Below are positions 32,834-33,476 of a stretch of 64,000 nt of DNA, in pieces; position 1 is the first letter of the stretch; each line of letters starts with the position of its first letter. The stretch comes from Octopus vulgaris (taxonomy: Eukaryota), in contig OX597830.1 of NCBI GenBank assembly GCA_951406725.2, positions 28,706,001 through 28,770,000 of the forward strand. The letters run 5' to 3'. A model generated the notes under the pieces. That model did no database searches, was not told where the DNA came from, and worked only from the letters and a program-made list of their open reading frames with translations. The position numbers and the translations under genes are program-made.

Positions 32834-32921
32834 CATATAATAGGAAAATGGAGTGTTTAAACTGACGTTAATTTATTGACATAATATTATATAGACATTA
32901 TAATGTAAAATTAAATAGATT

Positions 32922-32999
32922 CCCTACAATTGTTTCAATTCAAATCCCAAAACCCAAAATTCATATTATTGAAATATTTGTGTAAGAATCTCATCAGGG
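32922..32999 (-). ncRNA. Type I hammerhead motif, left arm of the foldback
   Basis: CC-CTGATGA-GATTC...GAATT-GAAA-CAATTG-TA-GG; palindromic helix III ACAATTGT, GUA site. Confidence 0.7.
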
Positions 33000-33203
33000 T
33001 TAACTGAAAGAAAACCACATATGAGAAATCTAAAATTGTAAAACAGACTGAATGAATATATACATTTGTATACAAGTGTGAGCGTCAGTAGCCATATTGT
33101 TTTAAATTTAAGGATTGGCGCTCACACTGACAAACATAAACATATATTAATTCAGTCTGTTTTACGATTTCAGGTTTCTCATATGTGGCTTTCGTCTAGT
33201 TTA

Positions 33204-33281
33204 GCCTGATGGGATTCTTACTCAAATATTTCTATAACATGAATTTTTGATATTGGGGTTTCAATTGAAACAATTGTAGGG
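33204..33281 (+). ncRNA. Hammerhead motif, right arm (core CTGATGG variant)
   Basis: CTGATGG(33206-33212)-GATTC...CAATT-GAAA(33267-33270)-CAATTG-TA-GGG. Confidence 0.55.
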
Positions 33282-33476
33282 ACTATATTTTAAATTTTAC
33301 AATCAGAATATAATATTATATTAATGAATTAACATAAGTCAGTTTAAACTATCCATTTCCATGTTAATATTATATATTTTGTATACGTACCTATTTGTAT
33401 TCGAGAAAGTTTTTTTCAACTATATTGGGTATTAAAATTGGATGTTTTACATCCCTAGGAGAGGAGCTTGTTTCCT

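What the first reader, a model, noticed from the sequence alone, without database searches (positions are those of the whole stretch)
32843..33360. 518-bp foldback with outward-reading hammerheads in both arms
Two ~245-bp imperfect inverted arms surround a ~24-nt spacer. Each strand encodes one HHR in its distal arm (CTGATGA on minus, CTGATGG on plus). It looks like a MITE, but the HHRs suggest an inverted pLTR pair of a Penelope-like element. Any read-through transcript would form long dsRNA, a potential ADAR or Dicer substrate, that also sequesters the ribozyme.
Basis: partly seen in the sequence, partly recalled or inferred. Interest (0 to 1): 0.7.

Follow-up and report, generated by a model that had tools for sequence, protein, structure and literature searches.

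The report
Fossil Penelope retrotransposon double end
This hairpin-shaped stretch is two back-to-back, truncated end pieces of an old Penelope-type jumping gene, each carrying a decayed self-cutting-RNA motif and likely pasted in together in one event, an arrangement already known from other animals.

Summary
The foldback is real (arms about 80% alike; spanned by DNA contigs of three runs) but is not a 518-bp unit: the right arm runs on to 33477. Both arms are 5'-truncated 3' ends of one dispersed family. It has two sharp 3' ends in (TA)n, 118 nt apart. In 26 of 27 two-armed sites with both ends callable, one arm has each end; inner junctions vary. Longer copies lead upstream through a ~2-kb 3' UTR to a broken RT + GIY-YIG ORF with Hydra-clade motifs (DKT, CxCX5C, CxxC/CxH). 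So this is the known Penelope-like layout: inverted pLTR plus tail. Only the left arm keeps an intact hammerhead core; the right has A9G and a broken helix II. Rfam finds no hammerhead, and copies show no covariation. The arms are not homogenised and show no A-to-G excess; nothing suggests a function as dsRNA. Published precedents exist, and this scan noted the same layout on other DNA. Mildly new: the tails are long (118 nt; ~175 nt in a young relative, against 30-40 published), and the one-end-each rule is strict.

The parts
32830..33091 (-). Left arm: 5'-truncated 3' end (pLTR piece) of the element, stopping at the family's short 3' end; outer limit blurred by (TA)n
   Evidence: (model 868-1202)
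32922..32999 (-). Type I hammerhead motif with intact core: 2-bp helix I, CUGAUGA 32997-32991, 54-nt helix/loop II (GAUUC/GAAUU), GAAA 32936-32933, palindromic helix III ACAAUUGU; predicted cut after the A at 32925
33092..33097 (.). Junction filler, about 6 nt not matched to the family on either strand
   Evidence: comparison with L046 by eye
33098..33376 (+). Right arm: 5'-truncated pLTR piece; starts about 18 nt further 5' in the family than the left arm and includes the 10-nt palindrome at 33102-33111
   Evidence: (model 872-1305)
33204..33281 (+). Damaged hammerhead motif (CUGAUGG = A9G; C.C in helix II; 1-bp helix I)
33377..33477 (+). 'Tail': family sequence between the short and the long 3' end, present on this arm only; has an internal deletion of about 16 nt and lacks the last 8-10 nt
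32802..32829 (.). Left target flank, (CA)n(TA)n microsatellite
33478..33520 (.). Right target flank, (TA)n(TG)n microsatellite; no target-site duplication can be read

Best explanation
The foldback consists of two 5'-truncated 3' ends of an old Penelope-like retrotransposon family with Hydra-clade protein motifs, joined head to head in a (TA)n microsatellite, and was likely written in a single insertion event and has probably been inert since. Shown: the family runs HHR - short end (+102 nt) - long end (+118 nt more) - about 60 nt - ATG - RT - GIY-YIG - about 2 kb UTR - HHR, and two-armed insertions carry one arm from each end. Inferred from the published in vitro work on an anole PLE: the element's protein nicked both strands of the AT-rich target, and each free 3' end primed reverse transcription of the element RNA, one at each internal start site. 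Both cDNAs stopped early, here within about 18 nt of each other (perhaps at one broken RNA end), and host repair joined their inner ends. The hammerheads are passengers of the pLTR. In the active ancestor they would have cut as protein-assisted dimers through the palindromic helix III. At this locus the right one is likely dead, and the left one would be buried in the hairpin.
For: Family: 44 matches from 40 scored of 88 candidates, and 59 from 40 of 353 with a second subfamily. Two sharp 3' ends followed mostly by (TA)n. One short and one tailed arm in 26 of 27 two-armed sites with both ends callable (12 sites; p = 2e-7 against 50:50). Inner junctions fall at different family positions. ORF link: EN then HHR then tail on one strand in L311; EN followed by the family's upstream block in L273, L275, L276; RT aa 12-502 of the young relative matched in L276; the tail runs on into an ATG in L318 and L234. 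A young relative (955-aa ORF, 45-56% identical over RT pieces) has the same layout, with ends near +165 and +341, and 4 of 4 callable pairs have one of each. Its helix III palindrome is ACAGCUGU against ACAAUUGU here. The two window arms share the short-loop subfamily type and 4 rare states, against at most 3 in 45 random pairs. Each arm is 11-14% from the family majority. Literature: PMC3846280 (inverted pLTR, tail on one arm), PMC4209133 (paired min-HHRs 100-700 bp apart on opposite strands), PMC8557442 (Hydra clade; Penelope-13_HM with an inverted 5' copy and an HHR on both strands), PMC11167929 (two RT start sites, tail between them).
Against: The window copy holds no ORF. The ORF-bearing copies I could type belong to a sister subfamily (L311 is 69% identical over 435 nt to a copy of the window's subfamily), and an ORF for the window's own subfamily was not seen. 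Pfam does not recognise the ORF, and two homolog searches found nothing. Domain calls rest on motifs read by eye and on ESM Atlas neighbours (RVT_1 in 14-48% and GIY-YIG in 34% of members of some clusters). Hammerhead support is weak by standard tests: no Rfam hit, no covariation above shuffles in 46 copies, no RNAalifold structure, helix I only 2 bp, and the core is no better kept than the tail (0.924 vs 0.898, p = 0.31). One site (L245) has two short ends; 6 two-armed sites had an uncallable end; only 19 of 69 sites with profile hits show two arms. The anole work saw no difference in start site between strands, so the one-each rule is not explained by it. No target-site duplication can be read.
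Confidence: 0.9

Rival explanations
1. Same element, different route to the foldback: one cDNA folded back on itself at the TTAAATTTAA palindrome and copied itself (self-priming), and the endonuclease then resolved the intermediate, leaving the tail on one side.
For: The two arms stop within about 18 nt of each other next to a 10-nt palindrome. Near-symmetric junctions also occur at L251, L256 and L261. Self-priming was proposed in PMC3846280, and EN resolution of the tail in PMC8557442.
Against: Most pairs have arms truncated tens to hundreds of nt apart (for example model positions 767/1099, 327/901, 1163/935), which simple fold-back cannot give. The palindrome lies in the right arm only. 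PMC11167929 maps the tail to two RT start sites.
Confidence: 0.2
2. A MITE or foldback DNA transposon whose TIRs happen to hold a hammerhead-like word.
For: Long inverted arms, short loop, no ORF in the window.
Against: The two ends differ by a tail of about 100 nt; no second copy of this palindrome was found as a unit; most sites show one arm; longer copies lead to an RT/GIY-YIG ORF.
Confidence: 0.01
3. A non-coding retrozyme-type parasite (small tandem unit, circular RNA) moved by a PLE.
For: Type I hammerhead with palindromic helix III; 2 kb or more of non-coding sequence upstream; earlier notes describe such families in this genome.
Against: I saw no short tandem unit in any locus; the tail continues into an ATG and the upstream region into an endonuclease ORF.
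Confidence: 0.05
4. An exapted dsRNA element (ADAR or Dicer substrate, or ribozyme switch) kept by the host.
For: Either strand is predicted to fold into a ~250-bp hairpin; the locus is shared by runs labelled as three organisms.
Against: Arm-to-arm identity (0.794) is exceeded by 18 of 58 and 22 of 63 other copies. A>G and T>C rates are equal across 65 arms (4.40% vs 4.33%, p = 0.88). None of 103 window frames matched a Pfam family above its cut-off, which is only a weak test for a host gene.
Confidence: 0.04

Closest known systems
Hydra clade of C-terminal EN+ Penelope-like elements (Craig et al. 2021, PMC8557442; read: passages, section 11, supplement part 2 with the Hydra sheet and HHR table)
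   Same: DKT, CxCX5C linker, CxxC and CxH around E and N, C-terminal GIY-YIG, (TA)n targets, type I HHR near the 3' end whose helix III runs AC..GT (as in Penelope-2_NV); Penelope-13_HM has an inverted 5'-truncated copy with an HHR on both strands.
   Different: Element about 5 kb or more (5.36 kb measured for the young relative) against 'generally <3 kb'; N-rich ORF inserts; about 2-kb 3' UTR; long helix II; tail 118 nt (young relative about 175 nt) against the 30-40 bp given for PLEs. The HHR differs from that of Hydra-1_Obim (2507 bp), so this is another family.
Inverted pLTR plus optional tail of Adineta vaga Penelope (Arkhipova et al. 2013, PMC3846280; passages read)
   Same: Head-to-head inverted pLTRs, tail on one arm only, palindromes at junctions, N-rich ORF inserts.
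   Different: There a 31-bp tail and 8-10-bp TSDs; here no TSD can be read in (TA)n.
[quoted passage not shown]
   Same: Palindromic helix III for dimer folding, long helix II, short helix I (2 bp in D. virilis), pairs 100-700 bp apart on opposite strands.
   Different: No extra nucleotide between A9 and helix II; helix II domain of 54-69 nt; cleavage triplet GUA.
Anolis PAc Poseidon in vitro (Frangieh et al. 2024, PMC11167929; passages and part 2 of the main text read)
   Same: Two internal 3' ends with a tail between them, AT-rich targets, HHR upstream of the start sites.
   Different: There the sites are adjacent, lie inside the ORF and are used alike by both strands. Here they are 118-175 nt apart, lie upstream of the ATG, and genomic pairs take one each.

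Membership tests
Penelope-like element (EN+) | RT followed by C-terminal GIY-YIG endonuclease in the family | tested here: met
   Broken ORF in L276, L318, L320; EN on the same strand upstream of HHR and tail in L311; atlas neighbours; no direct Pfam hit; no ORF in the window copy itself
Penelope-like element (EN+) | 5'-truncated copies, inverted copy at the 5' end, partial tandem (pLTR before the ORF) | tested here: met
   pLTR running into the ATG in L318 and L234
Penelope-like element (EN+) | Tail on one end only (30-40 bp in print) | tested here: met
   26 of 27 callable pairs; length is 118 nt, not 30-40
Hydra clade PLE | DKG changed to DKT | tested here: met
   DKT in L276, L318, L329; HKT in decayed L320
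Hydra clade PLE | CxCX5C linker | tested here: met
   L311, L312, L318, L329
Hydra clade PLE | [quoted passage not shown] | tested here: met
   CxxC in L312, L318, L329; CxH in L273, L276, L314, L329; absence of CCHH judged by eye only
Hydra clade PLE | N-terminal RWK motif | tested here: inconclusive
   RWR in L329, RRK in decayed L276
Hydra clade PLE | Insertion into (TA)n | tested here: met
Hydra clade PLE | Generally short (<3 kb; descriptive, not diagnostic) | tested here: not met
   Young relative 5.36 kb; EN-to-HHR distance alone about 2.1 kb in L311
Hydra clade PLE | RT phylogeny inside the Hydra clade | not tested
Type I hammerhead ribozyme | Core CUGANGA, GAAA, NUH with three helices | tested here: met
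   Left arm only; right arm fails at A9 and in helix II
Type I hammerhead ribozyme | Covariation in helices | tested here: inconclusive
   None above shuffles among 46 decayed copies; one double change in helix III between this family and the young relative
Type I hammerhead ribozyme | Self-cleavage | not testable with these tools
   Needs an in vitro assay
MITE / foldback DNA transposon | Amplified as a unit with matching TIRs and TSD | tested here: not met
   Unequal ends, variable junctions, mostly single arms
Non-LTR retrozyme | Short non-coding unit in tandem | tested here: not met
   No such array seen in the loci mapped; family linked to an ORF

The most novel reading that the evidence does not exclude
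This Hydra-type lineage uses two reverse-transcription start sites 118-175 nt apart in its 5' UTR and assigns them strictly, one to each nicked DNA strand. That would mean a protein dimer primes both target ends on a single RNA at structurally fixed positions. Near-symmetric foldbacks like this one would record both enzymes running off the same broken RNA end. The young 955-aa relative would be a ready system for testing this.
Probability: 0.45. Interest if true: 0.45.

Novelty: new member of a known kind. Interest (0 to 1): 0.22.

Why it matters
The locus is an ordinary dead transposon insertion. It matters as a caution: such foldbacks are easily filed as MITEs or as selected dsRNA switches. 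The family adds two small mechanistic data points. PLE tails can be three to five times longer than the 30-40 bp in the papers I read. The one-end-each rule (26 of 27 here, 4 of 4 in a young relative) is stricter than the only in vitro study predicts. Two-armed insertions of this kind also seed long inverted repeats across a genome, which could feed RNA editing if transcribed; that was not shown here.

Tried and rejected
RNA evidence: no RNA holder listed. One guessed-RNA run (X4) had no cover on the foldback, which is no evidence either way. A wider RNA lay gave no result, so host-gene context and expression remain open. ORF running on from the tail in L044: rejected, that sequence belongs to another repeat. 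An open frame inside the tail as the ORF start: rejected, the ATG lies about 60 nt beyond the tail end. GIY-YIG fragments beside copies L044, L042, L162, L163 and L170: separate insertions of other PLE families. The young 781-aa family (Neptune-like linker, label from PMC8557442 and recall) has the same layout but no DNA similarity (local score 23 vs shuffle mean 20.6, 459 of 2000 as high). An AT-rich upstream query returned only low-complexity hits. An automated junction map over-extended in AT-rich DNA and was discarded. The 0 of 5000 shuffle result used a descriptor written after seeing the motif, so I do not count it. For the core-conservation test, 9 of 65 arms found through a core-containing pattern were dropped. 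A splice acceptor just 5' of helix I was considered; the AG is not kept across subfamilies. A second tail-motif search gave 6 hits and no new ORF link. Literature searches found no description of this family or of tails over 100 nt. Only passages of the papers were read; PMC13282606 (passages) does not mention Hydra or hammerheads; supplementary figures S2 and S7 of PMC8557442 and bioRxiv supplements were not seen.

Full report
Observation. The inverted repeat is present: arms 32913-33087 and 33116-33290, 83% complementary without gaps, 79.8% over 248 nt with gaps, with a predicted RNA hairpin at z = -27.8. Contigs from 3 of 3 holder runs in two studies cover the junction with 1-4 differences. 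One of them may be the assembly's own sample, but the structure is not an artefact. The hammerhead words lie where stated. The minus-strand motif has a complete core, a 5-bp proximal helix II, a palindromic helix III (ACAAUUGU) and a 2-bp helix I. The plus-strand motif has A9G, a C.C mismatch in helix II and a 1-bp helix I. Rfam does not report either.

The family. A search of the window's genome (2.8 Gb; called octopus in earlier scan notes, a label I did not test) gave 44 matches from 40 scored of 88 candidates, at 68-89% identity apart from the query's own locus. A sister subfamily gave 59 matches from 40 of 353. Aligned in the hammerhead's sense, copies are truncated at many 5' positions and end at one of two sharp 3' ends, 102 and 220 nt after the predicted cut site in copy L031, usually followed by (TA)n. 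In the window the left arm has the short end and the right arm runs on through the tail to 33477, so the 518-bp palindrome is not the unit.

The pairing rule. One search merged 155 loci into 78 sites; 69 had profile hits and 19 of these showed head-to-head arms. One search added 36 loci, partly the same sites. Both outer ends could be called at 27 two-armed sites, and 26 have one short and one tailed arm. Twelve come: window, L038-L045, L051, L074, L118 (the L043 tail was read from the alignment). Fourteen come: L167, L233, L235-L238, L240, L242, L248, L251, L252 (counted once for three duplicated copies), L254, L256, L260. In four of these the short arm stops 5-15 nt early. L245 has three segments and two short ends. 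Six further sites (L033, L035, L037, L115, L163, L261) had an uncallable end. Against a 50:50 choice, p = 2e-7. Inner junctions differ from site to site. The window's is nearly symmetric: about 6 nt of filler, and a right arm about 18 nt longer that holds a 10-nt palindrome.

The autonomous element. Walking 5' through more than 2 kb of AT-rich sequence with internal repeats reached a broken ORF in L273, L275 and L276. A search with its C-terminal part led to L311, where linker and endonuclease are followed 2.1 kb later by hammerhead and tail on the same strand. It also led to L318, where a pLTR precedes the RT, and to a young relative with an open 955-aa frame, L329. In L318 and L234 the tail continues about 60 nt into an ATG. 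The protein shows DKT, CxCX5C, a GIY-YIG-like pair of motifs, and CxxC and CxH, the features Craig et al. give for the Hydra clade. Pfam and two homolog searches missed it; the ESM Atlas placed the two domains near RT and GIY-YIG clusters. The young relative repeats the layout, with ends near +165 and +341 and one of each in 4 of 4 callable pairs among 18 loci. Its hammerhead has a long helix II and the palindrome ACAGCUGU. The link to the window is by homology. L311 matches a copy of the window's subfamily at 69% over 435 nt, and no ORF of the window's own subfamily was seen.

The ribozyme. Across 56 arms the 11 core positions are kept at 0.924 against 0.859 for flanks (p = 0.002) but 0.898 for the tail (p = 0.31); 17 of 43 full copies are intact. 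Pairs are 83% kept but show no covariation above shuffles, and RNAalifold finds no consensus structure. Neutral decay from a few ancestors would give this picture. The motif is best read as an ancestral PLE hammerhead of the dimer type (PMC4209133), protein-assisted in the one element tested (PMC11167929). Its activity here is untested.

Function at this locus. The arms are each 11-14% from the family majority. They share 4 rare states (at most 3 in 45 random pairs), yet are no closer to each other than to many other copies: one template, then independent decay. A>G and T>C rates are equal over 65 arms. No window frame of 103 passed a Pfam cut-off. A transcript would fold, but nothing shows one, or selection for it.

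Mechanism. Shown: anatomy, two ends, pairing rule, ORF link. Inferred from PMC11167929: nicking of both strands of the (TA)n target, priming at two internal RNA sites, early termination, and repair joining the inner ends. That study saw no strand difference in site use, so the strict rule suggests, but does not prove, a dimer acting on one RNA; earlier notes of this scan proposed the same for other families. Fold-back self-priming (PMC3846280) remains a rival for near-symmetric cases.

Novelty. Inverted pLTRs with a one-sided tail, opposite-strand hammerhead pairs and a Hydra element in an octopus are all in print. This is another family of that kind, unusual in length, helix II and tail size; four searches showed no description of it. 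Interest 0.22.

Noticed in passing
L329 (G000:C2:168270413-168275760) and L330-L346: Young Hydra-type PLE family, 5.36 kb, open 955-aa ORF with N-rich inserts, about 2-kb 3' UTR, hammerhead with a helix II domain of about 85 nt, tail about 175 nt; not recognised by Pfam.
   Followed up: partly
L196-L225 (for example L203): Young PLE family with a 781-aa RT + GIY-YIG ORF, a UUGAUAA-core hammerhead variant, palindromic helix III ACAUGU, two 3' ends about 37 nt apart, (TA)n target; 131 scored matches of 25015 candidates.
   Followed up: partly
window 21653-22264: Second foldback (138-nt arms, 88%) with a hammerhead-like motif on the minus strand near 21744; the loop holds AAT microsatellites and a short insert.
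   Followed up: no
window 1789-1860 (+): Hammerhead-like motif CUGAUGA...CGAAA-CAUAUG-UC with palindromic helix III and helix I CUC/GAG.
   Followed up: no
window 911 (+), 62857 (+), 33600-33780: Further hammerhead-like words; the 33600-33780 stretch is a decayed copy of a very abundant repeat.
   Followed up: no
L033 (both arms): Both arms share the same change at the predicted cleavage triplet (GUA to GGA), suggesting that a template with a dead ribozyme was still copied, or that the arms were homogenised.
   Followed up: no
L252, L253, L255 (G000:C13:64.55-64.70 Mb): The same two-armed insertion with flanks occurs three times: a local segmental duplication.
   Followed up: no
L122-L141: Another abundant repeat end in (TA)n, with foldback junctions in some copies (L126, L127), probably the 3' end of a further PLE family.
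   Followed up: no
window 39495-39749 (-): Weak HTH_23 match (E 5.8e-5, below cut-off), likely a transposase remnant.
   Followed up: no
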